A stretch of DNA of 64,000 nucleotides from Parcubacteria group bacterium Gr01-1014_3 (GTDB lineage Bacteria; Patescibacteriota; Minisyncoccia; UBA6257; WO2-44-18), in assembly GCA_007376445.1 (NCBI GenBank), contig VMGF01000001.1, positions 114,875 to 178,874 on the forward strand, written 5' to 3'. The notes below the pieces were generated by a model. The model ran no database searches, had not been told where the DNA came from, and worked only from the letters and a program-made list of their open reading frames with translations. The position numbers were made by a program, and so were the translations under genes. This document shows positions 493 to 25,730 of the stretch, in pieces (position 1 is the first letter of the stretch; each line of letters opens with the position of its first letter).

Positions 493-732
493 TTATCTTT
501 TTTTGCCATGTGACTCTATTGTTTTACTGATTGAAACGATGGAATTAAAATTATCTGGCGATAGATCTTCCATTTTCACCGGGATTTTCAGTTCACTTTC
601 AATATAGGCAATTAGTTTAATCATGGAAAAAGAGTCGAGCACTCCGGCCTCGATAAGATTTTCGGTCTCGCTCTCGATCTTCCGCTGAGTCTCTTTTTCG
701 AGATATTCTTTTATCTTATTTTTTATTTCCAT
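493..732 (-). CDS. Acyl/aminoacyl carrier protein (DltC/ACP-like, 79 aa)
   Basis: Small acidic protein with the GVLDSFSMIKLIAYIE motif, where DSF/DSL serine is the phosphopantetheine attachment site. It overlaps the 3' end of the adenylating enzyme gene by 17 nt, a dltA-dltC-like arrangement. Confidence 0.75.
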   Translation of the reverse strand: MEIKNKIKEYLEKETQRKIESETENLIEAGVLDSFSMIKLIAYIESELKIPVKMEDLSPDNFNSIVSISKTIESHGKKR

Positions 733-2260
733 AGTAAGCTCGCAACTGGTTTCGATCGACTTTGCCAGTACTTGTTTCTGGTAAATGCATCTCTACTATT
801 TCTTCTGGAATCATGTAGCGCGGCAATTTTTTCGCTAAATCTTCTTTTATCTGACTGGGCGAAGCTGATTCGTCAGTATCAGTAAAGGCGACTAACTTTT
901 TTCCACCGCTGTCGGGATCATCAATATCTACGACTGCAACCTTTTTCACATAAGGAAGCGCGTACATTGATGAATCGACATCGCCAAGCTCAATTCTATT
1001 CCCGTGAATTTTTACTTGATTATCTTTTCGGCCGATAAATTCATAATTTCCATCGTCCCTAAGCCGAACTAAGTCGCCGGTTTTATAAACTATGCCGGTC
1101 TTGCCCGGACGCGGATCGGAAATAAAGGAAGCCTGCGTCTTTTCTAAATTATTCCAATAACCCTTACCTACCCCCTTACCACCTACATATAACTCGTCAT
1201 CCACCGCAAAAATTTCCATGCCACCGGTTGCCTTGCCGATCGGCACAAGCTTTGTGAGGTCGGTCGGCACTGCCGGAATTCGGTAAAACGAACACTGAAC
1301 CGTCGTTTCCGTAGGACCATACATATTAATAAATTCTTTTTCCGGATAAGTTTTCATCCACTCCGCCAAAAATTTAGTCGGGAATCCTTCGCCGTTGAAA
1401 AAGATTTTTTTGACAGAAGGCATGATGCCTTTTTTTACTAGACCAGAATTCCATATATAAACCATTACTGATGGTACAGAATTCCAAATGGTTAATTCAT
1501 TTTCTTCAATAAACCTTATCAACTCGCCTGGAAAAAGCGATAAATTATCAGGGACCGGATACAAGGTGGCTCCGGACTTGAATGCGCAATACAAATCAAA
1601 TGTAGAGAGGTCGAAATTAAAAGGTGGGTGTTGGGACATTTTGTCTTCACTGGTAATACCGAATTCCTTCACCGCCCAATCAGTCGCATTAATTATATTA
1701 GCGTGAGAAATTTCAACTCCCTTGGGATCACCGGTAGATCCAGATGTATACATAATGTAGGCTGTGGCATCGCTTTTGTTTTTATATTCTAAGGACGCTT
1801 TAGATTCCAAGTCTATTTCCTGTCTATGCTCAAAATTCTTATTCATTTCAATAAAGTTGAAGTCCGAAAGAGGTTCATAAGTTATTAATGCCTTCGCTGA
1901 ATAATTCATACAAACCAATAATTTAACATTTGCATCCTTAAGAATTTTGGCTACTCGCTCGGCTGGCAATGAGTGATTTACGGGAACATAAATCGCATCG
2001 CATTTAAGAATAGCCAATATGGTAGCTATTGCATCGACAGACATTATCTTCATAAACATTAGGGCCACCCGATCATTCCTTTGAACACCCTTACTCTTTA
2101 AGTATCTTGCTATTTGATTGCTGTAGCCTTCTAAATCACTAAAAGTCCTGGATTTGTATTCAGGAATTCTGGATTTTTCTTCATGCCAAACATAGACCGC
2201 AGCTTTATCCGGGAATTTTGTAGCTGAATCAGTGAAATATTCTTGAATTAGTTTTGCCAT
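716..2260 (-). CDS. AMP-dependent adenylating enzyme (DltA-like carrier-protein ligase, 514 aa)
   Basis: Adenylation-domain core motifs YTSGSTGDPKGV and YKTGDLVRLRDDGNYEFIGRKDNQVKIHGNRIELGDV. Stand-alone A-domain immediately followed by a carrier protein. Confidence 0.85.
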   Translation of the reverse strand: MAKLIQEYFTDSATKFPDKAAVYVWHEEKSRIPEYKSRTFSDLEGYSNQIARYLKSKGVQRNDRVALMFMKIMSVDAIATILAILKCDAIYVPVNHSLPAERVAKILKDANVKLLVCMNYSAKALITYEPLSDFNFIEMNKNFEHRQEIDLESKASLEYKNKSDATAYIMYTSGSTGDPKGVEISHANIINATDWAVKEFGITSEDKMSQHPPFNFDLSTFDLYCAFKSGATLYPVPDNLSLFPGELIRFIEENELTIWNSVPSVMVYIWNSGLVKKGIMPSVKKIFFNGEGFPTKFLAEWMKTYPEKEFINMYGPTETTVQCSFYRIPAVPTDLTKLVPIGKATGGMEIFAVDDELYVGGKGVGKGYWNNLEKTQASFISDPRPGKTGIVYKTGDLVRLRDDGNYEFIGRKDNQVKIHGNRIELGDVDSSMYALPYVKKVAVVDIDDPDSGGKKLVAFTDTDESASPSQIKEDLAKKLPRYMIPEEIVEMHLPETSTGKVDRNQLRAYYGNKK

Positions 2261-2592
2261 AAGACTATCGCGGCGGCGTATTCACCGGAATGCGTTAAAG
2301 AAACCAGCGCTCGCCCTTTGACGCCCTTTATTCGTAATTCCGGTTTCCCGTCTTTACTATTAACAACTTCGATATTTTTTGCCTCATACACGCTTTTTCC
2401 TAAAGCTTTAACAGCCGCTTCCTTGGCGGCAAACCGCGCGGCAAAATGTTGATAAGGATTGCTTTTCGCTAAACAATATTTTATTTCTCTATCGGTAAAA
2501 ATTTTCTCATAAAAAGATACATTGCCTTGATAAGGCATTTTTCTAAATCTCCCAACTTCTTCAAGGTCTATGCCGATTTCTTGTTTTTTCAT
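2248..2592 (-). CDS. acpS: Holo-ACP synthase (4'-phosphopantetheinyl transferase, AcpS-type, 114 aa)
   Basis: GIDLEEVGRF...FAAKEAAVKALG...SLTHSGEYAAA is the AcpS family signature; size is typical. Confidence 0.85.
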   Translation of the reverse strand: MKKQEIGIDLEEVGRFRKMPYQGNVSFYEKIFTDREIKYCLAKSNPYQHFAARFAAKEAAVKALGKSVYEAKNIEVVNSKDGKPELRIKGVKGRALVSLTHSGEYAAAIVLWQN

Positions 2593-3617
2593 TAGTGAGG
2601 ATTTGGACGATCCTGGTCAGCGTCGGCTTTGGTAAAAAAACAATCCGCGAAATCCACGGGGAGATCGAATCCAATATTTACATATGGCTTCTTGCTGGAT
2701 ATAGGATTAAAGCAGATCGGAAATTTTTCAAAATCTGTGCCTGCATCTTGAAAAAATCCCGACGCTAGCAGGGTTTTCCGATATTGGTTTCCGGAAAAAA
2801 CAAAATCAGCCATATTGGCGCCAGCCGCGCTGGCGACTTCCAAAAACTTTTGCAGTATCGGCGCTTCCGCCTCCGGTTCAGATATCCAGTCGACAATACG
2901 CGCGATTTTAAAATTCTGATCCTCCTCAAAACGAAAAATTAAATATCCTTTTAAAACACCGTTTTGTTTAGCCGCGAGCACCGAATAGCGAAAGAATGGG
3001 TGGTTAAAAAATCGCCAGAGAAGGTACTCTTTCGTCCGTTCAACCGTGACAGGATATTGCGAACGGACTTTTTGCCAAAAATCAGCGAGTTCTGGAAAAA
3101 AACTGGCAACCGCTTCTACCTCCCAGCCAGCCGGCAGTTCGCTTTTTATGGCGGCCCGCTGAGAAATTTTATAATTAGCGAACAATGGATGCTTTTCATT
3201 TAAAATTGCCAAGTAGCGGTCCAGATTACCAACCGTTTTCCAATTTTTACGAAAACGGATAAATAGCCGGTGCCCGCTATCGGAATATCCGGAAACAACG
3301 GCTGGATCATCGGTACCAAGAACTTTTTCTCCTAAAGCTTTTCCCACCCCCGTTCCACGATATTCTTCCATCACAAACAGATTCATTATAAGACGGACCG
3401 GCTGCGTTTTGTCGTAAATTTTATAAGGCAAATCAAGACAGCCAAAATGTCCGACAATTTTATCGCCACTTCTAGCGATAAACAGAGACTGATTAAATTG
3501 CCAATCAAGATACGCCGGATCTGCCATGATATATTTCGGGCGCGCGATCTGACGGATATATTCCTGGAACGCCGGCAAATCAGATTTTGTGTATATGCTT
3601 ACTTTGATATTTTCCAT
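2592..3617 (-). CDS. Tandem-GNAT-fold acyl/aminoacyl transferase (FemABX/BtrH-like candidate, 341 aa)
   Basis: N-terminal half carries a GNAT acetyl-CoA-type motif (VMEEYRGTGVGKALGE); the C-terminal half looks like a second GNAT-like fold. Start codon overlaps the acpS stop. Confidence 0.5.
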   Translation of the reverse strand: MENIKVSIYTKSDLPAFQEYIRQIARPKYIMADPAYLDWQFNQSLFIARSGDKIVGHFGCLDLPYKIYDKTQPVRLIMNLFVMEEYRGTGVGKALGEKVLGTDDPAVVSGYSDSGHRLFIRFRKNWKTVGNLDRYLAILNEKHPLFANYKISQRAAIKSELPAGWEVEAVASFFPELADFWQKVRSQYPVTVERTKEYLLWRFFNHPFFRYSVLAAKQNGVLKGYLIFRFEEDQNFKIARIVDWISEPEAEAPILQKFLEVASAAGANMADFVFSGNQYRKTLLASGFFQDAGTDFEKFPICFNPISSKKPYVNIGFDLPVDFADCFFTKADADQDRPNPH

Positions 3618-3642: not shown

Positions 3643-5001
3643 TTATATTTTTAGCATTGCCTGGACGATCCGTTCGCCTGAACGGCCATCTAATTTCCAG
3701 CATTGCTGATCAATTATTTTTTTACGAGCTTCTTGATCCAAGGTCGGATCAATCAAATAATTATTGATCCATTCAACTAATACTTCCGGACTTTTCACGA
3801 CCCGGATCGCGCCGGTCGAAAGTGCTTTCTGATAATGCGCCATGCCATAATAAGCGGTCGGCCGCTTGTAGGGGTCCGGTTCTTGTCCGATTTCAAATCC
3901 AATATTGATAATCGGTTTGTCGAAAACCGCGATATCCACCACCAAGCTGGTCGGATAAGCCACTAGCATCGAAGAATAGTGTAGGGTATCCAGAAGATGC
4001 TGAAGATCATCAGAGTTCATGTCCCAATCAACGCCGCGTTTTTTGGAAAACCTGACACCAGGAGTGTCATAAATCAGCCAGGGTCGTTTTTTTATTTCTG
4101 CCTCGTCAGCAAAATCATTAGGCTGAAATCTCATAAGAATCTGCAAATCTTTAGAAATCCGGCCCTGTTTTTGAAGATTCTGAAGTAAATCTACCATGTC
4201 CCAATCGGTGTTGCTATAAGTCTTGCCAAGTGGGGCGTAAAGGAGAATTTTTTTGCTCGGATCAACGCCTATACGTTTATAGAAAGTTTCTCTGAGGCCT
4301 GGTTTTTTAAAAACATATTGATCGTACTGAGGAATTCCTACGATGGTAATCCGCTCCTCCGGCATATCGGCATAATCCATCGCCTCTTTTTTTACAATCT
4401 CGTTATAAACCAAAAGCTGGTCCGGCAAAAGACGCACCATGCACCGGACGGTTAGCTTGTCCCAAGAATTTATAAAGCCGATGGTTTTGATTCCTCGCCG
4501 CCTCGCCTCTTGCAGCATCATAATTTCCAAATCATCGAAAAGATGCGCCGAAAAAACTAAGTCCGGTTTGTACTTTTCAAAGAATGGCGCGAAAGTATTG
4601 TCTTTAACCAAACGATAATCCAACCAGCGGCTGATCTGCCGAAAAGGCTTTACCGCGAAAATCCTATTAAAAGCGAAAGAGAATGGATAAAGAACTCTGC
4701 TCATCGGGTTCTTTTCGGTTCTCATTCGTCGCCGGAGATCCAGCGTAGCCGTGTTAATCAATTTAAATTTCAAAAAGGAAAAGATATTATTCCAAAAACT
4801 CGCTTTTGGCCGATCGATTACCTCATAAACTACCTGATTATTTTTAAACTCGCCGCCATAGTAATCAGCCCTTTCCTTGCTGCTGACAAAAAATACCAGC
4901 CGTAGATTCGGCTCTTTTATTAAATTTCTATAGACTTCGGTGCGCAGAATGTTTTTCGCCTCCACGCCCTGGAGAATAGTAATAAAAATGGTTTTTTGCA
5001 T
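3643..5001 (-). CDS. CDP-alcohol (CDP-glycerol/ribitol) glycerophosphotransferase family protein, TagB/TagF-like, paralog 1 (452 aa)
   Basis: C-terminal region IGFEIGQEPDPYKRPTAYYGMAH...CWKLDGRSGERIVQ resembles the TagB/TagF C-terminus (DG-S-ERV). Paralogous to 19098..20417 and 44157..45512. Confidence 0.6.
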   Translation of the reverse strand: MQKTIFITILQGVEAKNILRTEVYRNLIKEPNLRLVFFVSSKERADYYGGEFKNNQVVYEVIDRPKASFWNNIFSFLKFKLINTATLDLRRRMRTEKNPMSRVLYPFSFAFNRIFAVKPFRQISRWLDYRLVKDNTFAPFFEKYKPDLVFSAHLFDDLEIMMLQEARRRGIKTIGFINSWDKLTVRCMVRLLPDQLLVYNEIVKKEAMDYADMPEERITIVGIPQYDQYVFKKPGLRETFYKRIGVDPSKKILLYAPLGKTYSNTDWDMVDLLQNLQKQGRISKDLQILMRFQPNDFADEAEIKKRPWLIYDTPGVRFSKKRGVDWDMNSDDLQHLLDTLHYSSMLVAYPTSLVVDIAVFDKPIINIGFEIGQEPDPYKRPTAYYGMAHYQKALSTGAIRVVKSPEVLVEWINNYLIDPTLDQEARKKIIDQQCWKLDGRSGERIVQAMLKI

Positions 5002-5029: not shown

Positions 5030-5758
5030 TTAGTTACCGGACTTTTTACGCTCTTGCGCCTTAGAATATCGCTCGTGAGTCCCGATATCGTGCACGTAAT
5101 CGTCTACTCCGGCCAGATATCCATAATATTTTTCACCCTTGGAAATAATATCCGGTAAAAGATCGTGGTCAATCGCGCAGACACCGCTATCCGGAATATA
5201 TTTCAATATTTTTTTATTAAATAAATAAATTCCTTCCATGCCAAAATAATCGGTTTTTGGCATTTCTTTGTGTGGTTTTCGATAGATAGCAGTAAAGCGC
5301 ATATCTTTATCTAAAACTGCCAAATCGGAATCGTGCGGGTGGTCGTTTTTAGCTATCACATGAACACCAATCGCCGGTTGTTTCTTTTCGTAATAAGCCC
5401 GCATGTCTGAATAATTAATTTCATTAAACACATCTCCATAAACCACAAAAAATGAATCCCTTAGATATTTTTCAAATTTCTTTAAACCACCGGCGGTGCC
5501 AAGCAATTCGGGTTCGTAGGAATAAGTGATTTTCACGCCGAATTTAGAACCATCGCCAAAATAATCTTTAATAACCTCCGGTAAATAATGAAGATTGATA
5601 TAAAAATCATTAACGCCGTGTTCTTTGAGGTGTTCGATCTGATGTAGCAAAAGCGGCTTCCCCTCGATGGGTACCATGACCTTTGGAACTTTGTCAGTTA
5701 TCGGTCTTAGCCTTGTACCTAAACCGGCGCACATAATGACTGCTTGGCTAGTACTCAT
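5030..5758 (-). CDS. Sugar-1-phosphate nucleotidyltransferase (HddC/ManC-like, 242 aa)
   Basis: AVIMCAGLGTRLRPITDKVPKVMVPIEGKPLLLHQIEHL is the NTP_transferase G-loop (GxGTRL). Sits next to the heptose-pathway genes. Confidence 0.8.
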   Translation of the reverse strand: MSTSQAVIMCAGLGTRLRPITDKVPKVMVPIEGKPLLLHQIEHLKEHGVNDFYINLHYLPEVIKDYFGDGSKFGVKITYSYEPELLGTAGGLKKFEKYLRDSFFVVYGDVFNEINYSDMRAYYEKKQPAIGVHVIAKNDHPHDSDLAVLDKDMRFTAIYRKPHKEMPKTDYFGMEGIYLFNKKILKYIPDSGVCAIDHDLLPDIISKGEKYYGYLAGVDDYVHDIGTHERYSKAQERKKSGN

Positions 5759-5770
5759 TGCTCATATTTT

Positions 5771-5802
5771 ACAATAAAAAAGCCCCGATTTCCATCGGGG
5801 CT
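5771..5802 (-). terminator. Rho-independent terminator after the transaldolase gene
   Basis: Perfect hairpin agccccgat-ttcc-atcggggct (5781..5802). On the minus strand it is followed by a T-run (plus-strand aaaaa at 5776..5780). Confidence 0.6.
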
Positions 5803-5804
5803 AA

Positions 5805-6488
5805 CTACTCTTTTAAAACTCCAGCGTCCTTTAGGAACTGCTTTTGCGTCTTCACGCTCATCTTGTTCATCAAAAGTTCCGGCAGAAACTTGGTCGGAAT
5901 TGTCACGATGTGGGCGCCAGCTTCGTAGGCCCTAAGTACATCATTCTTCTTTCGAATACTGCCAACGATGATCTCCGAAGGCAACCGATACTGATCGATC
6001 AACTCGCGAGTCTTTCGAATCTCGGCTGAACCATCCAGTCCGGTATCCATGATTCGCCGATACAGCAAGCTGACATACTTCGCTCCGGCCTTGGCCGCGG
6101 CGAAAGCCTGAAACCAGGTAATGCAAGCAGTGCAGTTGACCGCGATCTCCTGCTGAGCCAGCTCGCGAATCACGGCTAGGCGATCGGTGCCATCAGTTCC
6201 CAAGATCGGGATCTTAATCGTCGTACCCTCATAATCCAGCTCATTCACGAACGACTTCGCCTGCTTCAGCATTTCATCGGGTGAATCACTGAACACTTCC
6301 ACGCTCAAAGAAATCGGTATGGGAGTGTATTTGCGGATCAATTCAACGATCTGCTTCCAAGCCGTCATCGGCTCAGTAACGCCAGCATTCTTCAATATGG
6401 TCGGATTCGTGGTGATGCCGTCCAAGAGGCCGGTCTTCAGCCAGCGATCGATTTCTTTGAGATCGGCGGTATCTAGAAAGGGCTTCAT
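5805..6488 (-). CDS. Transaldolase / fructose-6-phosphate aldolase family (short Tal/FSA type)
   Basis: MKPFLDTADLKEIDRWLKTGLLDGITTNPTILK is the Tal/FSA N-terminus, and IKIP holds the Schiff-base lysine. Start moved to the internal ATG at 6488, which has a GGAGG Shine-Dalgarno 9 nt upstream and forms an ATGA overlap with the upstream gene's stop. The longer track ORF to 6566 is probably over-extended. Confidence 0.8.
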   Translation of the reverse strand: MKPFLDTADLKEIDRWLKTGLLDGITTNPTILKNAGVTEPMTAWKQIVELIRKYTPIPISLSVEVFSDSPDEMLKQAKSFVNELDYEGTTIKIPILGTDGTDRLAVIRELAQQEIAVNCTACITWFQAFAAAKAGAKYVSLLYRRIMDTGLDGSAEIRKTRELIDQYRLPSEIIVGSIRKKNDVLRAYEAGAHIVTIPTKFLPELLMNKMSVKTQKQFLKDAGVLKE

Positions 6489-7111
6489 TTCTTTTCCTCC
6501 TTTTGGGCGCTCTCCCACTTTCCTTCTTGCAAACGGAATCCGGGGTTGGAAACGATCAGGTGCCAAACGACCGCCTGAAAAGATTCGGCATGCGGCGTAA
6601 CCGTTTCGGGGTTAACAGTTGGAATCAAGACGCAGACATCCGCCACCTGTTTGGTATAACCTCCATCGCGACCCACAATACCGATGATGCGCGCGCCCAC
6701 CTGCTTGGCATACTTAAGAGCTTCCACGATATTCGCGCTGATATTCTTCTCCGCGTTACCACCACCCACCGAAAGAACCAGGATGAGATCTTTTTCGCTA
6801 AGCCAGCTCGTTTGTAGCCAGCGGACGAAAACAGAATTCCAGCCATCGTCATTGGTCCGGGCAGTAATCTCGGAAACATTGTCAGTCGGCGCGTAACTTT
6901 CCATACCGCCCAATTTTCGAAAATCATTGACCGCGTGGCTAGCGTTGCCGGCGCTACCACCAACTCCCAGAATGAACAATCGTCCCCTAGAAGTACGAAC
7001 ATCAATGAGGATTTCGATAGCTTTATGAATTGAATCCTTATCTAACTTTTCAATGATCAACTTGGCTTCTTCCAGATAGGAATCGATGTATTCTTTCGTG
7101 CCGTTGTTCAC
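6485..7111 (-). CDS. SIS-domain sugar phosphate isomerase (GmhA-like sedoheptulose-7-P isomerase, 208 aa)
   Basis: GVGGSAGNASHAVND and LSVGGGNAEKNISAN match the GmhA GNGGS.../STSGNS pattern. Placed next to the transaldolase (S7P source) and the HddA-like kinase. Confidence 0.7.
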   Translation of the reverse strand: MNNGTKEYIDSYLEEAKLIIEKLDKDSIHKAIEILIDVRTSRGRLFILGVGGSAGNASHAVNDFRKLGGMESYAPTDNVSEITARTNDDGWNSVFVRWLQTSWLSEKDLILVLSVGGGNAEKNISANIVEALKYAKQVGARIIGIVGRDGGYTKQVADVCVLIPTVNPETVTPHAESFQAVVWHLIVSNPGFRLQEGKWESAQKEEKK

Positions 7112-11949: not shown

Positions 11950-13491
11950 TTAGGGGGCGGGGGTCGCGGGATTCGTAGAATCCCAACGATTTCCAATATT
12001 CTTCTTCAAGCGTTCAGCGACATAGGCCGGCGGGTTAACCGTTCGCCAGGCCCATTCACGGAGCTCAAGAACTCGCTCTGGTGAGATAACGGTATTTTTC
12101 AATACCGGCCGGTGCCAGTTCATCGTGTCCGGATCGAAATTCGGATCAAGATGACCTTTCTGAATCGCGTAATCGTACAGCTGACATCCCGGGAACGGAA
12201 TTGGAATAAAGAACGAACAGTACTTGGCGCCGGCATCCACCGCTCGCTTCGCGTACTCCACGCTCTTCATCAGTTCTTCCTCAGTCTCATCCGGAAATCC
12301 GATCATCATGTTCACGGGGCAAGTAATTCCAACCCGGGAAGCAATCCGAATCATCTCGATAATGTCCATTGTCGGAAGATGCAGTTTGCCGGTAGAGTAC
12401 TTATCCAGAATCCGCTGTGAGCCGGATTCAATCGGGAAAACAATCTGATCAAAACCGGCATCACACAAGAGACGAAGATAGTCCTCGTCGGTATCGAGTT
12501 TTCCGGTCAACTTATTGCGAACCAAGAAATGAACCAGATTCACGCCGTTCACGTCAGCGATGCGCAGCCCCGCGTTAAGAAGATAGGTGAAAATTTCTTT
12601 CACTCTCGCCTTCTTGGCAAGCAAGCTGTCGTCTTCAAAATAAATCTTTTGCACGCCGAGGCTCTTCAGGGTCTCGATCTCTTTGATCACCCTGGGCACC
12701 GACTTCACGCGCAAGTTGCCGATATCTTCCTTGAATTCACGCTCTTTCGAGATATGGCAGTAGGCGCACTTAAACGGGCAGCCACGCGAAGTCATAATCG
12801 GCGCGTACATCATCTTTTCTTCCAAGACCACATCGCCATGTGGTGAAAGGATCTTGGCGTACTTTTTCAGCGGCGACTTATGCCAAGCCGGAATCGGGAG
12901 TTCATCCAGATCCATGCTGGTATCGCCAGACTGGACGGGATTGCCCATCACTCGGCCGTTGTGCATAAACAAAGTCCCACTGACATCATCGATCGATTCG
13001 CCCTTTGCCCACTTCTCGATCAAGCGGACGATGATCTTTTCGCCTTCGGTCGTACAAATAACATCAACGAGCCCGTTGCTCAAAAATCGCTCGGGCATGT
13101 TGCGCGCGTTCACCCCGCCGCTGATGACCAGCATTTCGGGATTCACTTCCTTAGCGATCTTGGCGACCAGGAGCGCCATTCGCGTCTGGGGCGTAAAATT
13201 CGAGTGCACTCCGACGACATTGTAGCCACCCTTAGCGATCACCTCGCGAATCCGTTCGTCCGGCATACCGATGCGGATCAGTCCGTTCTGTTGCGGAATA
13301 CCTTTGTAAAAAGTGTCTTCGAGCGTGTCCTGATCAGTACCAACCGACGCATCCAGGATATCTGCTTCAATACCGGCTCGCTCTAACGCGGCGGCCAGAT
13401 ACAAAGGACCAAGCGATCCATCGGGACGAGCTGTCTCGGTCGGATTCAGCTGATTTGGCGGATAAATGAGCAGAACTTTCGGTGTTTTCAC
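11950..13491 (-). CDS. B12-binding (cobalamin-dependent) radical SAM enzyme, class B, 513 aa
   Basis: N-terminal B12-binding-like domain (VLLIYPP...GPLYLAAALERAGIEADILDA) followed by the radical SAM CxxxCxxC motif (TSRGCPFKCAYCH). Confidence 0.8.
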   Translation of the reverse strand: MKTPKVLLIYPPNQLNPTETARPDGSLGPLYLAAALERAGIEADILDASVGTDQDTLEDTFYKGIPQQNGLIRIGMPDERIREVIAKGGYNVVGVHSNFTPQTRMALLVAKIAKEVNPEMLVISGGVNARNMPERFLSNGLVDVICTTEGEKIIVRLIEKWAKGESIDDVSGTLFMHNGRVMGNPVQSGDTSMDLDELPIPAWHKSPLKKYAKILSPHGDVVLEEKMMYAPIMTSRGCPFKCAYCHISKEREFKEDIGNLRVKSVPRVIKEIETLKSLGVQKIYFEDDSLLAKKARVKEIFTYLLNAGLRIADVNGVNLVHFLVRNKLTGKLDTDEDYLRLLCDAGFDQIVFPIESGSQRILDKYSTGKLHLPTMDIIEMIRIASRVGITCPVNMMIGFPDETEEELMKSVEYAKRAVDAGAKYCSFFIPIPFPGCQLYDYAIQKGHLDPNFDPDTMNWHRPVLKNTVISPERVLELREWAWRTVNPPAYVAERLKKNIGNRWDSTNPATPAP

Positions 13492-13553
13492 TTGCTACCT
13501 CGTGTTTATTGTAAAAGAAACCACCAATACTATATAAAAAAAGACTGCTTATG

Positions 13554-14555
13554 TCAAAGCAGTCTTTGGAAGTCTGGTTCCGTGGCGACAGTTCCCTGAT
13601 AATCGATTTCGAGCGGAATTCTCGGCCAACCCCCCATCGCCATAGCCTCAGTGACATTCCGAATTGATTCATCATCAGGGCAATAGAAGAGGAAGTAACC
13701 ACCTCCACCGGCGCCGATATTCTTTCCGCCTAAAGCCCCGTTGGCCTTAGCGATTTCATACATCAGATCAAATTTTTCGTTCGAAATCTTATTGGACATC
13801 TGCTTCTTCAGTCGCCAGTGTTCGTCCATCAACTTTCCAAAGGCATCCATATCTCCAGCATTAAATGCCTGCAAGATTGCCCTGCCAATCTCCTTGGTCA
13901 TTTCTTTCAGATCGTAAGCCTTATTATTATCCTGATCGGCCAAAATTTTCTGGCTTGGACCTTCTCGCTTTTCACCGGTGAAGAAAAATAAGGTGTGCTT
14001 CAGAAATTTATTTACCGTGTTCTCTGAAAAGTTTGGCCTGGAAACATCAACCGTTCCGTCCTTCTTTATATAAAGAACTGTAAAGCCACCACTTGCCGCA
14101 AGATAAGGATCCTGCTTGCCATCATGCGCCCAGAGACCACCAAGCCGCTGAGTTATCTCAAACGCTTTCTCGGCCAGAAACGATGTATCCTTGCATTCAC
14201 CCTTAAGGGTGTAAAGGCCGTTTAACAATCCAACCGCGCAAGCTCCCGAAGAACCGAGACCGGTCCCAGCAGGAGAATCGGCGTTGAAAGTAACGCTGAT
14301 AGATTTATCGATACCCACAATCCTCAAAGCTTCACGACCAATATCGTGCTTCAGCTGATCAACCGAATCAACCAGTTCCTGAATACGATAATTAAACTGA
14401 ATCCGGCCATCCATGCGAAGCGGCTTGATCATGATGTGCATGTAGCACTTGATCGCCACGCCAAAAATGAATCCGCCGTACTTTTCGTAATAAGAAGGGA
14501 TGTCAGTCGAACCGCCGCCAAGTGAGATTCGGAACGGGGTCTGGGTAAGTATCAC
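13554..14555 (-). CDS. GHMP sugar kinase, D-glycero-D-manno-heptose-7-phosphate kinase (HddA)-like, 333 aa
   Basis: N-terminal TPFRISLGGGSTD motif and C-terminal GAGGGGYFLFYC glycine-rich motif, typical of the HddA/GHMP family. Confidence 0.75.
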   Translation of the reverse strand: MILTQTPFRISLGGGSTDIPSYYEKYGGFIFGVAIKCYMHIMIKPLRMDGRIQFNYRIQELVDSVDQLKHDIGREALRIVGIDKSISVTFNADSPAGTGLGSSGACAVGLLNGLYTLKGECKDTSFLAEKAFEITQRLGGLWAHDGKQDPYLAASGGFTVLYIKKDGTVDVSRPNFSENTVNKFLKHTLFFFTGEKREGPSQKILADQDNNKAYDLKEMTKEIGRAILQAFNAGDMDAFGKLMDEHWRLKKQMSNKISNEKFDLMYEIAKANGALGGKNIGAGGGGYFLFYCPDDESIRNVTEAMAMGGWPRIPLEIDYQGTVATEPDFQRLL

Positions 14556-14610: not shown

Positions 14611-15405
14611 TTATTTCTTTTTGGCAATCAAGTAAAAACCAGCAGTAATGGTCTCGGCGGACTGGTAATGAATAAAAAGATAATCTAATACTTTCAATGG
14701 CGATGTAAGAATTACCATACTGATCCACAAAAAATCTTTCATTGTTTTGTTATTGAATGAAAGGGCGAGCGCCACCCACTCCTGAAATACGGAGAGTAAG
14801 GCGCAGGTTGGCCCAACATCTGGTCCAATTTCCACCATTTCAAAATCTTTGAAAAGCGTCCGCAAACCATCCGCTGTCCAGCGATAATGGTCCTTTGGGG
14901 ATGGGTGATATGGAGTAATAAAGTTAGTGGTTAAGTATAAATACCCGCCGGGCTTTAAGGCTCGGTTAATTTCAGCGGCAACTTTTACTGGGTCGTGCAT
15001 GTGTTCTAATACCCACGAAAGCACAATGCCGTCAACCGAATTTTCGGCAAAAGGAAGGTCGTGCGCATCGGCCAAAATATCCACCATTGACCATGGATGA
15101 ATATCCACATTCACGATCTCCGGATGAATCCGCCGATTGCCGGAACCAATTTCCACCACCAGGCCATTCTTTGGGGTTAGAGAAAAGATGTGCTTGGGTT
15201 GCTTGCCCAGGAAGAGCGCTGGCGCGATGAAATAAAAAATAAAACTATAAAGCCAAGGAATCTTTTTTAGATTAGTTTTTAACTTATTAATAAAACCGGT
15301 ATGTAAATCGGAACGCATTGCTTCATACCCGGAATCGGGAATAAAAAGAGGCCTGCCATCAATATGACGAATGGGTTGTTTCTTAAATTTTACTCGATTA
15401 TCCAT
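14611..15405 (-). CDS. Class I SAM-dependent methyltransferase with C-terminal membrane helices, paralog A (264 aa)
   Basis: VVEIGSGNRR (motif I) ... LKPGGYLYLTT, plus a C-terminal hydrophobic tail. About 50% identical to 27972..28775. Confidence 0.75.
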   Translation of the reverse strand: MDNRVKFKKQPIRHIDGRPLFIPDSGYEAMRSDLHTGFINKLKTNLKKIPWLYSFIFYFIAPALFLGKQPKHIFSLTPKNGLVVEIGSGNRRIHPEIVNVDIHPWSMVDILADAHDLPFAENSVDGIVLSWVLEHMHDPVKVAAEINRALKPGGYLYLTTNFITPYHPSPKDHYRWTADGLRTLFKDFEMVEIGPDVGPTCALLSVFQEWVALALSFNNKTMKDFLWISMVILTSPLKVLDYLFIHYQSAETITAGFYLIAKKK

Positions 15406-18174: not shown

Positions 18175-19095
18175 TTAAAAGACTATATCAGCAGTATCGT
18201 ATCTTGGCAATAAAAAGTCATTATCAGAAGATAGTATGCTTCGCCTATCAATAGTCAGAGCGTATTTAAATCCTTCTGATGCTAATACCTCTAAAACGGC
18301 TGGGCCGTTGCGGCCATGCGGATAAGAAAAAATATCTTGCCGATTCCCTAAAAGATCGAACAAGATTTCCTTACTTAAACGAATATCCTTTTGCATGATG
18401 TCCTTGTTTCCAATGTCAAAAGCGGAATGATTGTGGGAATGGCTGCCAATTGTCATTCCGGCCTGATGCAATGATTTCACCTCTTGCTTACTCATGAATA
18501 ACCGCTGACTTATCTCCTTTTCGTTAAGACCGAAAATTTTAAATCCGTACCTTAAAAACTGTCCCTTGATGTCTTCCGGAAGCATGATCATTGTTTCTTT
18601 GAAATTCGCGATTGAAATAGTTTCGTGCAGTCGCCGCTCAGTCAGTCGGCGATCTTTTGGAATAATGTATTGCTTTTTCAAATCTGGATAAAAATTTTGC
18701 ATAAAATCGTGGAAAGTATCTATAATTTTTTCCGGCGACAATCTGGAAAGCAAAATGTGGACTTTATGGGCAGTTGGCAAATGCCCTTCGAACACGGAAG
18801 TGATCGGGAAAAACGTCGCGGTAGCGTTATATTTTTTCAAAATCGGAAAAGCGTTGATATATTGATCCTTAAGACCATCGTCAAAAGTAATGACGCAATA
18901 TTTACCACTCTTACCGTCGCGCGTAGCCTCGACTAGTTCTGAAACAGAAACAATCTTATAGTTTTCGCTCAAAAACTGGACCTGTTTTTCAAAATCTTTA
19001 ACCGAGCAAGGATAAATCCCCGAAAATTCCGGACTGGGATCTTCCACATAATGGTAATTAACGATTATATAATTGTCGCTTTTGGAATAAGCCAT
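18175..19095 (-). CDS. Polysaccharide deacetylase (CE4, NodB homology domain), 306 aa
   Basis: CVITFDDGLKDQ (TFDDG motif) and TIGSHSHNHSAFD histidine motif. Confidence 0.8.
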   Translation of the reverse strand: MAYSKSDNYIIVNYHYVEDPSPEFSGIYPCSVKDFEKQVQFLSENYKIVSVSELVEATRDGKSGKYCVITFDDGLKDQYINAFPILKKYNATATFFPITSVFEGHLPTAHKVHILLSRLSPEKIIDTFHDFMQNFYPDLKKQYIIPKDRRLTERRLHETISIANFKETMIMLPEDIKGQFLRYGFKIFGLNEKEISQRLFMSKQEVKSLHQAGMTIGSHSHNHSAFDIGNKDIMQKDIRLSKEILFDLLGNRQDIFSYPHGRNGPAVLEVLASEGFKYALTIDRRSILSSDNDFLLPRYDTADIVF

Positions 19096-19097
19096 TT

Positions 19098-20417
19098 TTA
19101 AGTAATTTTTTCTATGAGATCTACGTTGCGCCTGTAAGAAAGTCCGTCCCGAAAAACGAAAAATCGGTCGGCGACCCTCTGTCGATTTTCACTGTCTTTC
19201 ATCGGATTAGCCAAATACTCGTTAATACTACTTAGCATTTCTTCATCGTTTGGAACAAAGCGAATCGCCTTTTCTTTTATTAATGGATAATAGTAGGAAC
19301 TTTCATCAAAATAGTGCTTGTTCTGAAATAATAACGCTGGATCGATAAAATTTATAACCGGCTTGTCAAAAATAAAAGATTCTAAAGAAATAGTTGATTT
19401 GTGATTGATATTTATATCGGTATAAGCCAATGTGGCCTTTAAATTTACGAAAGCGTCTAACTTCTTTTTTGGCTCCGAAATACGCTCCACAAAAATATCT
19501 GGCTCACTCAAAAAAATCCGATACCATTCTGGCTCATCAAAAGGATGGGGGCGAACCAAAAAATTCACATAAGGAATCACGCCTGATTTTCGTAAATCTA
19601 AAATCTTTTTAAAAATCGTGGGCTGGTTCGGGGCGCGGCCGCCAGAGGCGAATAAGATCGTTTTATATTTCGGATTCAGGCCTTTAATGGATAAAAATTC
19701 ATCGCGGCTCGGGATTTGGCGAGAGACGTCAAAATATTGGTCGAACCGCATACTGCCGGTCACAAAAATCCGGTCCGGAGAAAAATGGTGGATTTTGATC
19801 GCCGCGTCCTTGAGCACCTGATTCCAAACAAAAAGGTAGTCCGGCTTACGTGATCGCACGCACTTAAAAGAAGTAAGGTTATCCCAGCTAATGTTAGTGG
19901 CCAGAGTGGGAATACCCATCTTTTTTCCATACAAAATCGCCTCGGCATCAAAGACTTGAACTCCCGGAGTAGCCGTCATAATTAAGGATGGCTGATATTT
20001 CTTGACGTATTCTTCCAGCAAAGAAGATCGCCTCATAAAAAAAAGTTCGAGCGCGGTAAAAAACCGGCTAGTCAAAAATGGCGCGAATGGCCAAGAAATA
20101 AGGCGCAGTAATCTCGCTCTTTTGTCATTCCGGAAAGCGGGACTGTCATAGTAAAACTGCAGGCTCGATACTTTATCAAACTCGTGCATGCAAACGGTGC
20201 GCAGATATTTAGTCACCGCAAAAAGCCTGGGGTTTTGAATTTTCCAAGGCACGCACTCCACGTTCAGGGCAGAAAGGATTTGCTTCGTATCAGAATCGAT
20301 CACATTGCTAAAAATAATCACGCGATATTTTTTGACCAGCTCTTTAATGTAGTTGGTTTTAAGAAGATCGGAGATAAAAAGAGAGTTTTTTAAAAAAAGG
20401 AACAGGGTTTTGTTCAT
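19098..20417 (-). CDS. TagB/TagF-like CDP-alcohol phosphotransferase, paralog 2 (439 aa)
   Basis: Collinear similarity to 3643..5001 and 44157..45512, for example KPVINFIDPALLFQNKHYFDESSYYY versus KPIINIGFEIGQEPDPYKRPTAYY. Confidence 0.55.
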   Translation of the reverse strand: MNKTLFLFLKNSLFISDLLKTNYIKELVKKYRVIIFSNVIDSDTKQILSALNVECVPWKIQNPRLFAVTKYLRTVCMHEFDKVSSLQFYYDSPAFRNDKRARLLRLISWPFAPFLTSRFFTALELFFMRRSSLLEEYVKKYQPSLIMTATPGVQVFDAEAILYGKKMGIPTLATNISWDNLTSFKCVRSRKPDYLFVWNQVLKDAAIKIHHFSPDRIFVTGSMRFDQYFDVSRQIPSRDEFLSIKGLNPKYKTILFASGGRAPNQPTIFKKILDLRKSGVIPYVNFLVRPHPFDEPEWYRIFLSEPDIFVERISEPKKKLDAFVNLKATLAYTDININHKSTISLESFIFDKPVINFIDPALLFQNKHYFDESSYYYPLIKEKAIRFVPNDEEMLSSINEYLANPMKDSENRQRVADRFFVFRDGLSYRRNVDLIEKIT

Positions 20418-20462: not shown

Positions 20463-21200
20463 ATGAATAAGCGGCAAATTAAGGTCCTCGGTGTAATCCC
20501 GGCCCGGGGAGGATCAAAGAGTATAACCCACAAGAACATAGTTTTGGTTGCGGGAAAGCCGCTGATTTATTACACCATCCGTGAAGCCAAAGAATCAAAA
20601 CTTTTAGATGCTGTTATTGTTTCAACCGATGATCCGAAGATCGCCGCCGTCGCCAAAAAATACGGCGCCGATGTCCCATTCCTTCGCCCGGAAAAAATTT
20701 CCGGCGATAAATCAAAAGATATTGAATTTATGCGTCATGCCTTAAGCTGGCTCAAGAAAAATCGCGGCTGGGAACCGGAAATTCTCGTCAACCTCCGGCC
20801 TACCTCGCCGCTGCGAACCGCGGAAGATATTGATAAAGTAATAGCGCTAGCAATTAAAGATAAATGCAGTATCGTCAAAACCGTTTCTCTTCCCTCTCCG
20901 CACAATCCTTTTAAAATGTGGCTTTTTGATGGAAATAAAACATCCATGCAGCCGATTCTGCCAACTAAATACTATAAAACTCTCGGCACGGATGTTCCGC
21001 GGCAAATTTTGCCGCTCGCGTATTGGCAAAACGGTTTAGTTGACGCTATCCGCGTTAAAAATATAAAAACCGGCAAAATTTTTGCCGGTCCTATCGGAGG
21101 TGTGATCACTGACTCCGAAAAATCAATTGACTTAGATGAACCAAAAGACATTAAAACCCTGGAGGAGTTTCTTACCAAGCAGTCCAACCTCCATCGATAA
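20463..21200 (+). CDS. CMP-nonulosonic acid synthetase (acylneuraminate cytidylyltransferase family), 245 aa
   Basis: VLGVIPARGGSKSITHKNI...VIVSTDDPKIAAVAKKYGADV...NLRPTSPLR match the NeuA/LegF/PseF family motifs. Confidence 0.85.
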   Translation: MNKRQIKVLGVIPARGGSKSITHKNIVLVAGKPLIYYTIREAKESKLLDAVIVSTDDPKIAAVAKKYGADVPFLRPEKISGDKSKDIEFMRHALSWLKKNRGWEPEILVNLRPTSPLRTAEDIDKVIALAIKDKCSIVKTVSLPSPHNPFKMWLFDGNKTSMQPILPTKYYKTLGTDVPRQILPLAYWQNGLVDAIRVKNIKTGKIFAGPIGGVITDSEKSIDLDEPKDIKTLEEFLTKQSNLHR

Positions 21201-24860: not shown

Positions 24861-25730
24861 CTACTTGCGGCGCAACTTTTTCATGATCGGCTCCTCGGAT
24901 GGAAGGATGCGCTTAACGCCATCGCCCCTGGACTTCTCGTAGTTACGAATTTCTTTAACAAGCATCTGCAGTCCTTTCTTTTCCAGGCTAGCCGCCTGAT
25001 CAGTACCCCACATTGAGCGATCAAGCGTGATGTGCCTTTCCACCATGCAAGCTCCCAGCGCGACTGCCGTTACCGATGACACCACTCCTTTTTCGTGGCC
25101 ACTATAACCGATTGGAATTCCGTAGCGTTGCTGAAAAGCCGGGATAACATGCAAATTAAGTTCGTGTAGCTCCGCCGGGTAAGTGGAGACCGCGTGTAAA
25201 ACCACTAAGTTTTCTTTACCCAAAATTGAAACGGCATGATCTACCTGCTCTTGATTGCTCATGCCAGTAGAAAGAATTATGGGCTTGTTCTTGCTCTTAA
25301 TGTGAAGCAACAATGCGTCGTCGGTCAAAGAAGCGGAAGCTATTTTATAAAAAGGCGGGTTAAATTTATCCAAAAAGTCCACGCTATCTTCGTCCCAAGG
25401 AGAAGCTGACCAAAGGATTCCCTTTTGTTTGCAGTAATCAGCGATGACCCCGTAGCTTAGGTCATCAAATTCCATTTTGTGGCGATAATCAATATAGCTG
25501 ATATAACCCCACGGAGTTTCCCGCATTTTTTCCCATTGATCACGAGGCACGCACTTTTCCGGAGTTCGTTTTTGGAACTTCACCGCGTCGCAACCGGCAT
25601 CTTTAGCCATATCGATCAGTTTTTTAGCAACCGCCAAATCACCGTTGTGGTTAATGCCGATTTCGGCAATTACGAACACGGGTTGTCCTGTTCCAACTAA
25701 GCGATCTCCTATTTTTACTGGTTTACTCAT
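24861..25730 (-). CDS. Nonulosonic acid (N-acetylneuraminate/pseudaminate/legionaminate) synthase, NeuB family, lacking a C-terminal SAF domain, 289 aa
   Basis: VFVIAEIGINHNGDLAVAKKLIDMAKDAGCDAVKFQ and IGYSGHE fit the NeuB/SpsE family. Confidence 0.85.
   Translation of the reverse strand: MSKPVKIGDRLVGTGQPVFVIAEIGINHNGDLAVAKKLIDMAKDAGCDAVKFQKRTPEKCVPRDQWEKMRETPWGYISYIDYRHKMEFDDLSYGVIADYCKQKGILWSASPWDEDSVDFLDKFNPPFYKIASASLTDDALLLHIKSKNKPIILSTGMSNQEQVDHAVSILGKENLVVLHAVSTYPAELHELNLHVIPAFQQRYGIPIGYSGHEKGVVSSVTAVALGACMVERHITLDRSMWGTDQAASLEKKGLQMLVKEIRNYEKSRGDGVKRILPSEEPIMKKLRRK

What the first reader, a model, noticed from the sequence alone, without database searches (positions are those of the whole stretch)
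493..3617. Carrier-protein-dependent acyl/aminoacyl transfer cassette (adenylating enzyme, ACP, AcpS, tandem GNAT) attached to the glycan locus
Four co-directional, overlapping genes encode a stand-alone adenylation enzyme (YTSGSTGDPKGV), a 79-aa carrier protein (LDSFSM), a dedicated holo-ACP synthase and a 341-aa tandem-GNAT transferase. They sit immediately downstream of a TagF-like gene. The architecture is that of Dlt-type D-alanylation or BtrI/BtrJ/BtrH-type aminoacyl transfer, but it lacks DltB/DltD. The inference is that a carrier-protein-tethered amino acid or hydroxy-acid is transferred by the GNAT protein onto an amino sugar or alditol-phosphate polymer. A private AcpS in a small genome is itself unusual.
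Basis: inference. Interest (0 to 1): 0.65.

Follow-up and report, generated by a model that had tools for sequence, protein, structure and literature searches.

The report
Carrier-protein sugar-acylation cassette in a CPR bacterium
Four overlapping genes in a glycan locus of a tiny uncultured Parcubacteria bacterium most likely load an amino acid onto a small carrier protein and let an unannotated two-domain acyltransferase attach it to a surface sugar, which points to a widespread, unstudied way of decorating bacterial sugars.

Summary
On the minus strand, just downstream of a TagF-like gene, lie a 341-aa tandem GNAT (3617..2592), AcpS (2592..2248), an NRPS-type amino-acid adenylation enzyme (2260..716) and a 79-aa carrier protein (732..493).

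- The 341-aa protein belongs to a large unannotated family: 4394 clusters at 50% identity, with a near-C-terminal DQDRP motif.
- 72 of 90 members have a carrier protein or carrier loader (FkbH or AMP-binding enzyme) within 8 kb.
- Natural fusions exist to PP-binding, AMP-binding and FkbH domains.
- 63 of 90 have a CE4 deacetylase within 10 kb (28 adjacent). 46 of 90 have NeuB or a CMP-sugar synthetase within 10 kb.
- AcpS is part of the cassette in 15 of 22 CPR/DPANN loci but in 2 of 68 others. The "private" AcpS is therefore a normal cassette component there.

- The fold is NMT/Eis-like, not Fem-like, and BtrH is papain-like.
- This is not a Dlt system. Scores fall below the DltA/DltC cutoffs, the specificity code DLFNFNMVQK matches DltA at 4 of 10 positions, and no DltB or DltD is in the window.
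- The window's cassette is a chimera. AcpS, adenylation enzyme and carrier are of the "amino-acid" type, while the GNAT belongs to the clade that otherwise partners FkbH.

The acceptor sugar and the amino acid remain inferred.

The parts
2592..3617 (-). 341-aa tandem GNAT acyltransferase ('GNAT2'). The N-terminal GNAT domain carries the R-G-T-G-V-G pantetheine-phosphate loop. The C-terminal GNAT-like domain holds most invariant residues and the near-C-terminal ADQDRPNPH motif. Proposed carrier-protein:sugar N-acyltransferase.
2248..2592 (-). 114-aa AcpS-type 4'-phosphopantetheinyl transferase, dedicated to the cassette's carrier protein.
   Evidence: ACPS, 69.8 bits. (TIGR00556, 77 bits against cutoff 45; TIGR00516 acpS, 58.9 against 59.8). 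(53-55% identical to the AcpS of the A-type cassettes L085-L087). (AcpS in 15 of 22 CPR/DPANN cassettes against 2 of 68 others).
716..2260 (-). 514-aa stand-alone NRPS-type amino-acid adenylation enzyme. Specificity code DLFNFNMVQK. Loads the carrier protein.
   Evidence: TIGR01733, 345 bits against cutoff 317; DltA models below cutoff. (best solved relatives are NRPS A domains). (code extracted; EntF control recovered DVWHFSLVDK; code identical in 42 and N278D in 16 orthologues). (B. cereus DltA pocket DLMTLCTVAK, 4 of 10 identical). (more than 80 CPR orthologue clusters at 50% identity or above).
493..732 (-). 79-aa aminoacyl carrier protein with phosphopantetheine site Ser34 in GVLDSFSM.
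   Evidence: PP-binding, 30.1 bits. (best NCBIfam DltC, 37.7 bits, below cutoff 68). (55-61% identical to the carriers that follow the A domain in L085-L087).
3643..5001 (-). 452-aa TagF/TagB-family GT-B transferase. It is the conserved upstream neighbour of the cassette and may install the modified sugar or an alditol phosphate. Function not resolved.
   Evidence: PF04464, 39.2 bits. (weak partial hit to the BFO_1060 family, 47 bits against cutoff 200). (orthologues at 47-56% identity lie immediately or closely upstream of AcpS in L006, L085, L087, L088 and L089; in L090 the TagF orthologue lies just downstream of GNAT2; the L086 neighbour is 41% identical). PMC5420450: TagB-like proteins Tanf_01245 and TFUB4_00887 are required for adding the nonulosonic-acid residue in T. 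forsythia; BFO_1060 is their homologue in strain 92A2.
18175..19095 (-). 306-aa CE4 polysaccharide deacetylase. Candidate partner that would free the acceptor amine. It lies far from the cassette in this window.
   Evidence: Polysacc_deac_1, 76 bits. (in the syntenic L006 a 313-aa orthologue lies about 4 kb upstream of AcpS, and PDA-like fragments lie directly upstream of TagF1). (a CE4 homologue within 10 kb of GNAT2 in 63 of 90 loci, adjacent in 28).
20463..21200 (+). CMP-sugar (nonulosonic-acid/Kdo-type) cytidylyltransferase. Context for the proposed acceptor pathway.
   Evidence: CTP_transf_3, 74 bits. (natural CTP_transf_3 + A-domain fusions P0128 and P0140)..
24861..25730 (-). NeuB-family nonulosonic acid synthase. 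Context for the proposed acceptor pathway.
   Evidence: NeuB, 271.7 bits. (NeuB or CMP-synthetase within 10 kb of GNAT2 in 46 of 90 loci).

Best explanation
The cassette is a self-contained, carrier-protein-dependent sugar-acylation module.
1. AcpS converts the 79-aa apo-carrier to its holo form at Ser34.
2. The stand-alone NRPS-type adenylation enzyme activates an alpha-amino acid and thioesterifies it to the carrier. The pocket code is DLFNFNMVQK. The substrate is unknown but probably small and polar, and it is not the DltA pocket.
3. The 341-aa NMT/Eis-like tandem GNAT binds the aminoacyl-phosphopantetheine arm in its N-terminal GNAT domain. It transfers the aminoacyl group to a free amine on a sugar held by the conserved C-terminal domain (DQDRP motif).
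4. The acceptor amine is most likely made by a CE4 de-N-acetylase acting on an N-acetylated sugar of the locus, probably a nonulosonic-acid-type sugar or its hexosamine precursor. This is a 'deacetylate, then re-acylate' logic, as in NodB/NodA-NodF or LpxC/LpxD.
5. The neighbouring TagF-like transferase then builds the decorated unit into the surface glycan.

Shown here: gene presence, family assignments, fold, conserved pocket code, and genomic co-occurrence and fusions. Inferred: every catalytic step, the identity of the amino acid, the acceptor, and N- versus O-acylation.
For: Anatomy and families.

Fold: tandem GNAT of the Eis/NMT type, enzymes that N-acylate amines.

Carrier dependence of the GNAT2 family:
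- Carrier ORFs lie within the flanks of 49 of 84 loci.
- 72 of 90 full-length members have a carrier, FkbH or AMP-binding gene within 8 kb.
- Carrier density is 0.80 per 10 kb within 3 kb of GNAT2, against 0.11 per 10 kb farther away in the same loci.
- Natural fusions: PP-binding+GNAT2 (P0197, P0215), AMP-binding+GNAT2 (P0253), FkbH+GNAT2 (P0220).

Module recurrence: TagF-AcpS-A-ACP-GNAT2' in L085-L087. Locus L006 is syntenic with the window but holds AcpS-FkbH-ACP-MaoC-SDR-GNAT2 in the same slot, so the loader is exchangeable around a constant transferase.

Amino-acid substrate: TIGR01733 above cutoff, Asp235 and Lys517 present, and the code conserved in 58 orthologues.

Acceptor context: CE4 deacetylase within 10 kb in 63 of 90 loci and adjacent in 28. 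NeuB or CMP-synthetase within 10 kb in 46 of 90. Cytidylyltransferase-A-domain fusions. NeuC-like and CMP-synthetase genes directly follow GNAT2 in L001, L086 and L087, and follow it farther downstream in L090.

AcpS pattern: 15 of 22 CPR/DPANN loci against 2 of 68 others.
Against: - No biochemical data exist for any member of this GNAT family.
- The window's cassette is atypical. Its GNAT2 is 48-50% identical to FkbH-associated members but only 28-30% identical to the GNAT2' that normally follows the A-ACP pair. Its AcpS, adenylation enzyme and carrier are of the A-type. Whether this GNAT accepts an aminoacyl rather than a hydroxyacyl carrier is therefore untested. Its N-terminal domain shows no extra divergence that would suggest adaptation.
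- The window has no NeuC-like gene and no sugar aminotransferase. The CE4 deacetylase lies 14.5 kb away. The acceptor is therefore weakly constrained here.
- The R/Q-x-x-G-x-G/A loop also fits plain acyl-CoA use.
- The specificity code matches no code I can recall with confidence.
Confidence: 0.6

Rival explanations
1. A Dlt-like system. The enzyme activates D-alanine (or another amino acid), and the carrier-bound residue is esterified to hydroxyls of a teichoic-acid-like alditol-phosphate polymer made by the TagF-like enzymes. The soluble tandem GNAT replaces DltB and DltD and acts in the cytoplasm on the lipid-linked polymer.
For: DltA and DltC are the best-scoring named NCBIfam equivalogs for the ligase and carrier. 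DltA structures are among the solved relatives. Three TagF-family genes lie in the window, one directly upstream.
Against: Scores are far below the equivalog cutoffs (294 against 560; 37.7 against 68). The pocket matches B. cereus DltA at only 4 of 10 positions, and the D-Ala-selecting Cys is Asn here. No MBOAT or DltD is present in the window. The GNAT's structural relatives are N-acyltransferases. Family-wide partners are CE4 deacetylases and nonulosonic-acid genes. TagB-like proteins can be nonulosonic-acid transferases (PMC5420450).
Confidence: 0.12
2. The tandem GNAT is an ordinary acyl-CoA-dependent N-acetyltransferase. It either acetylates a sugar or tailors the carrier-bound amino acid (for example N-acetylation). 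The aminoacyl group is transferred by some other enzyme, or not to a sugar at all.
For: Pfam sees only generic GNAT families. The CoA-type R-x-x-G-x-G loop is present. The nearest solved structures all use acyl-CoA.
Against: It does not explain the direct PP-binding+GNAT2, AMP-binding+GNAT2 and FkbH+GNAT2 fusions. It does not explain the 7.6-fold local enrichment of carrier genes. In the window no other candidate transferase lies between the TagF-like gene and FolD.
Confidence: 0.15
3. The window's cassette is a recombination relic. An FkbH-type GNAT2 lost its loader, and an A-type AcpS-A-ACP set lost its own GNAT2'. The parts do not work together.
For: The parts have mixed ancestry. The gene order GNAT2-AcpS-A-ACP differs from both common orders, and no other locus examined shows this combination.
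Against: All four ORFs are intact with core motifs preserved. They overlap by 1, 13 and 17 nt, as in a translationally coupled operon. GNAT2 shows normal conservation in both domains. In other phyla GNAT2 members sit directly beside NRPS-type A domains (L056, L053), so the family as a whole is compatible with amino-acid loaders.
Confidence: 0.1

Closest known systems
Dlt D-alanylation pathway (DltA, DltC, DltB, DltD, with AcpS priming DltC)
   Same: A stand-alone adenylation enzyme loads an amino acid on a small dedicated carrier protein to decorate a cell-envelope polymer. The ligase and carrier are in the same superfamilies.
   Different: Scores are below the DltA and DltC equivalog cutoffs. 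The pocket code is DLFNFNMVQK against DLMTLCTVAK. There is no MBOAT or DltD in the window. The transferase is a soluble tandem GNAT, and the likely product is an amide on a sugar amine made in the cytoplasm.
NodB / NodF-NodE / NodA in Nod-factor synthesis, and LpxC / LpxD in lipid A (established knowledge, recalled from memory)
   Same: The same 'remove the N-acetyl group, then N-acylate the freed sugar amine from a carrier-protein thioester' logic, as suggested by the CE4-deacetylase + carrier + GNAT2 gene sets.
   Different: The donor here is an amino acid (or, in relatives, a glycerate-derived hydroxy-acid), not a fatty acid. The transferase fold is NMT/Eis-like tandem GNAT, not NodA or a left-handed beta-helix. 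The analogy was not tested experimentally here.
Butirosin BtrI/BtrJ/BtrH side-chain transfer
   Same: A carrier-protein-tethered amino-acyl group is transferred to an amine of an amino sugar.
   Different: BtrH has a papain-like fold (BtrH_N, PF14399; PMC10318531), not a GNAT fold. From memory, the Btr loader is an ATP-grasp ligase rather than an adenylation domain.
N-myristoyltransferase and Eis-type tandem GNATs
   Different: Sequence identity is 10-15%. Those enzymes use acyl-CoA. GNAT2 has its own near-C-terminal D-x-D-R-P motif (376 of 382 members) and a carrier-protein genomic signature.
Uncharacterised carrier-protein genes in nonulosonic-acid glycosylation loci. Examples: C. jejuni cj1299-cj1308 with FkbH-domain cj1302 (PMC7099621; other gene names from memory), Aeromonas flagellin glycosylation island group II (PMC7874193), and V. 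cholerae O1 rfbKLMNO tetronate genes (from memory).
   Same: Carrier protein plus AMP-dependent ligase or FkbH genes embedded among pseudaminic or legionaminic acid genes. Unusual N-acyl groups (glyceroyl, di-O-methylglyceroyl) are known on these sugars, and their enzymology is described as unknown (PMC5378307).
   Different: No homology between those loci's transferases and GNAT2 could be tested here. A search seeded with a Bacteroidota GNAT2 found no named or Tannerella homologue in the top 120 hits.

Membership tests
NRPS-type amino-acid adenylation domain (TIGR01733) | Score above the curated cutoff; core motifs A3-A10 | tested here: met
   345.1 bits against cutoff 317.4. YTSGSTGDPKGV, FDLS, NMYGPTE, YKTGDL and GKVDR are present.
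NRPS-type amino-acid adenylation domain (TIGR01733) | Asp235 (binds the alpha-amino group) and Lys517 in the specificity code | tested here: met
   Code DLFNFNMVQK. The positions were validated by recovering DVWHFSLVDK from E. coli EntF.
DltA (D-alanine--D-alanyl carrier protein ligase) | Equivalog score (TIGR01734 / NF003417) | tested here: not met
   294.3 bits against cutoff 559.85, and 295.4 against 476.
DltA (D-alanine--D-alanyl carrier protein ligase) | D-Ala pocket, including the Cys at code position 301 | tested here: not met
   The B. cereus DltA pocket read from the PDB alignment is DLMTLCTVAK. The window has Asn at position 301, and 4 of 10 positions are identical.
Dlt system | DltC equivalog carrier | tested here: not met
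   NF003464 scores 37.7 bits against cutoff 68. TIGR01688 scores 22.9 against 52.35.
Dlt system | DltB (MBOAT) and DltD encoded with DltA and DltC | tested here: not met
   No such Pfam family in any window ORF of at least 150 aa. The rest of the genome was not available.
Carrier protein (PP-binding, PF00550) | Pfam score above cutoff and a D-S phosphopantetheine site | tested here: met
   30.1 bits against cutoff 20.8, with LDS at Ser34.
AcpS-type phosphopantetheinyl transferase | ACPS domain (PF01648 / TIGR00556) above cutoff; about 115-aa single-domain size | tested here: met
   69.8 bits against cutoff 25, and 77.1 against 45.35. 114 aa. The acpS equivalog-domain model TIGR00516 scores 58.9 against 59.8, just below cutoff.
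Tandem GNAT of NMT/Eis type | Two GNAT-fold domains in one chain, superposing on NMT/Eis-like structures | tested here: met
Fem / FemX aminoacyl-transferases | Fem-type fold or FemAB Pfam/NCBIfam hit; aminoacyl-tRNA donor | tested here: not met
BtrH-type ACP:aminoglycoside acyltransferase | Papain-like BtrH_N domain (PF14399) | tested here: not met
   The protein is a GNAT. BtrH_N is classed with papain-like peptidases (PMC10318531).
TagF/TagB CDP-glycerol glycerophosphotransferase family (neighbour gene) | PF04464 above cutoff | tested here: met
   39.2 bits against cutoff 22.1 on residues 196-450.
TagF/TagB CDP-glycerol glycerophosphotransferase family (neighbour gene) | Uses a CDP-alditol donor to make a polyol-phosphate polymer | not testable with these tools
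   TarL equivalog scores 16.6 bits against cutoff 1000. There is a weak partial hit to the BFO_1060 family, whose members are needed for nonulosonic-acid addition in T. forsythia.
'GNAT2' family as delimited here (unannotated) | About 330-380 aa tandem GNAT ending in D-x-D-R-P/A within 25 residues of the C-terminus | tested here: met
   The window protein ends ...TKADADQDRPNPH. The motif is in 376 of 382 members. There are 4394 clusters at E <= 1e-10.
'GNAT2' family as delimited here (unannotated) | Carrier protein and/or carrier loader encoded nearby or fused | tested here: met
   In the window the carrier lies 1.9 kb downstream in the same operon-like block. Family-wide, 72 of 90 members meet this, and fusions exist.

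The most novel reading that the evidence does not exclude
GNAT2 would be the missing enzyme family that installs non-acetyl N-acyl groups (glyceroyl, lactyl or methylglyceroyl, aminoacyl) on nonulosonic acids and related amino sugars across bacteria and DPANN archaea. It would work as a plug-and-play system. A CE4 enzyme removes the N-acetyl group. A dedicated carrier protein is loaded either by FkbH (glycerate-derived acids) or by an NRPS-type A domain (amino acids). One conserved tandem GNAT transfers whatever the carrier presents. The window would then be a natural loader swap: an amino-acid loader paired with a transferase from the hydroxy-acid clade. In CPR organisms this glycan decoration would be the main or only client of 4'-phosphopantetheine chemistry, which would explain why the cassette carries its own AcpS.
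Probability: 0.35. Interest if true: 0.75.

Novelty: new variant of a known kind. Interest (0 to 1): 0.6.

Why it matters
Carrier-protein-dependent decoration of envelope polymers is known from Dlt, Nod factors and lipid A. The transferase here belongs to a large family that databases label only 'hypothetical' and that Pfam sees only as a generic GNAT or not at all.

Its gene neighbourhood gives a concrete, testable candidate for an open question. The enzymology of unusual N-acyl groups on pseudaminic and legionaminic-type sugars is described as unknown (PMC5378307).

It also gives one of the few mechanistic handles on how ultra-small CPR bacteria diversify their surface glycans. Exchangeable loader modules (FkbH or A domain) around a constant transferase would be a simple route to surface variation.

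Finally, it explains why organisms that lack fatty-acid synthesis keep an AcpS.

Tried and rejected
- BtrH-like GNAT: rejected, because BtrH is papain-like.
- DltA identity: rejected on equivalog scores and pocket code.
- My first motif-anchored reading of code position 278 (Ser) was wrong. Aligning with E. coli EntF as a control corrected it to Asn.
- A single-sequence phmmer search with the window's carrier found carriers in only 6 loci. An iterated HMM was needed and found 49.
- Second GNAT2, FkbH, MaoC or NeuC-like genes in the window: none by tblastn.
- Extra divergence of the window GNAT2's donor-binding domain, as a sign of adaptation to an aminoacyl donor: none. N-domain identity is 42.7% against 45.0% among relatives, and C-domain 50.3% against 49.0%.
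- The idea that the terminal carboxylate acts as catalytic base, as in NMT/Eis, is weakened. The tail after the DQDR motif varies from 1 to 17 residues.
- Link to an organism with a solved glycan (Tannerella, Campylobacter): the last homologue search, seeded with a Prevotellaceae member, returned only unnamed or hypothetical proteins. Literature searches found no paper describing this transferase family.
- The AFDB Foldseek library was unavailable.
- Promoter and terminator scans gave counts no higher than shuffles.

Full report
**1. What is there**

The window comes from Parcubacteria group bacterium Gr01-1014_3. The 341-aa protein and the ligase are 100% identical to its records.

On the minus strand, one search lists the following ORFs.
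- A 452-aa ORF at 5001..3643.
- A 341-aa ORF at 3617..2592.
- A 114-aa ORF at 2592..2248.
- A 514-aa ORF at 2260..716.
- A 79-aa ORF at 732..493.

The last four overlap by 1, 13 and 17 nt. A FolD-like gene starts 16 nt after the carrier gene, so the cassette ends there.

Family assignments:
- 79-aa protein: PP-binding, with the LDS site at Ser34.
- 514-aa protein: AMP-binding, and above the curated cutoff of TIGR01733, the amino-acid adenylation domain (345 bits against 317).
- 114-aa protein: ACPS.
- 341-aa protein: a generic GNAT hit on residues 29-99 only.
- Upstream protein: the TagF/TagB family PF04464.

**2. The 341-aa protein**

No Fem or FemX structure appears among the best matches. 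"Tandem GNAT" is therefore right, but "Fem/BtrH-like" is not.

The N-terminal domain keeps the R-G-T-G-V-G loop typical of pantetheine-phosphate binding. Most invariant residues lie in the C-terminal domain, including D334, D336 and R337 in the terminal motif DQDRP.

No NCBIfam model hits the protein. Relatives are named "hypothetical" in the databases.

**3. The family and its company**

A pattern search on the C-terminal motif found 397 relatives in reference genomes of many phyla. A profile search found 4394 clusters at 50% identity with E <= 1e-10. The D-x-D-R motif lies within the last 25 residues in 376 of 382 members.

In 90 loci I called ORFs and labelled them with profiles built from the window and from relatives. 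Counts are over 90 full-length members.
- 72 have a carrier protein, an FkbH-like loader or an AMP-binding enzyme within 8 kb, almost always on the same strand.
- Carrier genes occur at 0.80 per 10 kb within 3 kb of the GNAT gene, against 0.11 per 10 kb farther away in the same loci.
- 63 have a CE4 polysaccharide deacetylase within 10 kb, and 28 have one directly adjacent.
- 46 have NeuB or a CMP-sugar synthetase within 10 kb.

Natural fusions exist:
- PP-binding + GNAT2 (P0197, P0215).
- AMP-binding + GNAT2 (P0253).
- FkbH + GNAT2 (P0220).
- Cytidylyltransferase + A domain (P0128, P0140).

These fusions and neighbourhoods are the main evidence that the family takes its acyl group from a carrier protein. 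They are also the main evidence that it acts in amino-sugar or nonulosonic-acid pathways.

**4. The module in CPR and DPANN**

Two cassette types recur downstream of an orthologous TagF-like gene.
- FkbH type: AcpS-FkbH-ACP-(MaoC dehydratase-SDR or a methyltransferase)-GNAT2. Found in L001-L007, L010, L011 and L088-L090.
- A type: AcpS-A domain-ACP-GNAT2', followed by NeuC-like and CMP-synthetase genes. Found in L086 and L087; in L085 a 623-aa protein of unknown function follows GNAT2' instead. The 346-361-aa "no Pfam" proteins of L085-L087 are GNAT2 homologues.

Locus L006 is syntenic with the window on both sides but carries the FkbH type in the same slot.

The window is a hybrid.
- Its AcpS (53-55% identity), A domain (59-68%) and carrier (55-61%) are closest to the A type.
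- Its GNAT2 is 48-50% identical to FkbH-type members and only 28-30% identical to GNAT2'.
- Its GNAT2 sits upstream of AcpS rather than after the carrier.
- There is no second GNAT2 and no FkbH in the window.
- Both domains of the window's GNAT2 are as conserved as in its relatives.

AcpS is present in 15 of 22 CPR/DPANN cassettes and in 2 of 68 cassettes from other phyla. It is established knowledge that most CPR bacteria lack fatty-acid synthesis. Together, these points explain the "private" AcpS: the cassette must bring its own phosphopantetheinyl transferase.

**5. The amino acid**

I aligned 117 orthologues with the E. coli EntF A domain as a control. The control returned the known serine code DVWHFSLVDK, which I recalled from memory.

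The window's code is DLFNFNMVQK. It is identical in 42 orthologues and has N278D in 16 more. Asp235 and Lys517 indicate an alpha-amino acid.

The B. cereus DltA pocket, read from the PDB alignment, is DLMTLCTVAK. It is identical at 4 of 10 positions, and the cysteine known to select D-Ala is Asn here. The DltA and DltC equivalog models score far below their cutoffs.

From memory, the nearest textbook code is threonine (DFWNIGMVHK, 5 of 10 identical). The polar pocket residues N/D278, N301 and Q331, with bulky F239, F299 and M322, suggest a small polar substrate. This is only a lead.

**6. The acceptor**

The window holds the following genes:
- NeuB (24861-25730) and a CMP-sugar synthetase (20463-21200).
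- A CE4 deacetylase (18175-19095).
- Three TagF-like genes.
- A GDP-heptose-like gene set.

It holds no NeuC-like gene and no sugar aminotransferase.

TagB-like proteins are needed for adding pseudaminic and legionaminic acid derivatives in Tannerella forsythia (PMC5420450). The neighbour protein has a weak partial hit to that family's NCBIfam model. The authors of the companion paper state that the enzymes making the N-glyceroyl group of Pse5Am7Gra are unknown (PMC5378307). The C. jejuni flagellin glycosylation locus has an FkbH-domain gene (PMC7099621). Aeromonas islands carry ACP and AMP-dependent synthetase genes among pse genes (PMC7874193).

The best-supported reading is N-acylation of a sugar amine freed by the CE4 enzyme, probably on a nonulosonic-acid-type sugar or its precursor. 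For this particular window that step is inference.

**7. Verdict**

The finding is real, and its central inference holds. It is not a Dlt system, and the transferase is neither Fem-like nor BtrH-like.

The kind of system is already known: carrier-protein-fed decoration of an envelope glycan. The transferase family and its exchangeable loader modules appear undescribed in the literature I could search. I rate it a new variant of a known kind, with interest 0.6. No step has experimental support.

Noticed in passing
window 38765-39340 (+) and 39330-40781 (+): The two adjacent ORFs (191 and 483 aa, no Pfam hit) together align to one 623-aa protein of L085 (10816-12687). They look like a split or frameshifted gene. 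An intact paralogue lies at 15419-17266 (-).
   Followed up: partly
window 3643-5001, 19098-20417, 44157-45512 (all -): Three TagF/TagB-family (PF04464) paralogues lie in one glycan locus. The second sits next to the CE4 deacetylase and the CMP-sugar synthetase.
   Followed up: partly
window 5030-7111 and 11950-14555 (-): A GDP-heptose-like gene set is interleaved with a B12-binding radical SAM enzyme, a NUDIX protein and several epimerases or reductases. The set comprises TAL/FSA, a SIS isomerase, a GHMP kinase and an NTP transferase. The same set is syntenic in L006 and L087.
   Followed up: no
window 5781-5802 (-): A strong terminator-like hairpin (9 pairs, 6 G-C, T-run) lies between the TAL/FSA gene and the NTP-transferase gene. 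It may mark the start of the transcription unit that contains the cassette. Genome-wide, such sites were no more frequent than in shuffles.
   Followed up: no
window 14611-15405, 27972-28775, 28828-29562, 31710-32453, 32535-33173, 35947-37227, 40781-41629, 42770-43579, 43495-44184: At least nine SAM-dependent methyltransferase genes lie in the 64-kb glycan region, including a C-methyltransferase with a zinc-binding domain.
   Followed up: no
L001 2075-3474: A bAvd gene and a reverse transcriptase (RVT_1), the hallmarks of a diversity-generating retroelement, lie just upstream of the deacetylase-AcpS-FkbH-ACP cassette in a related Patescibacteria contig.
   Followed up: no
L090 185-7128: Two carrier/GNAT2 cassettes lie in tandem: AcpS-FkbH-ACP-GNAT2, then TagF-ACP-MaoC-SDR-GNAT2 (327 aa). 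NeuC-like and CMP-synthetase genes follow.
   Followed up: partly
P0128 (767 aa), P0140 (810 aa): Homologues of the window's adenylation enzyme (37-39% identical) are fused to an N-terminal CMP-sugar cytidylyltransferase domain (CTP_transf_3).
   Followed up: partly
window 22884-24860 (+): A 658-aa protein whose only hit is a short nucleotidyltransferase (NTP_transf_2 / Pol-beta-like) domain sits on the opposite strand between the GFO/SDR/CMP-synthetase genes and NeuB.
   Followed up: no
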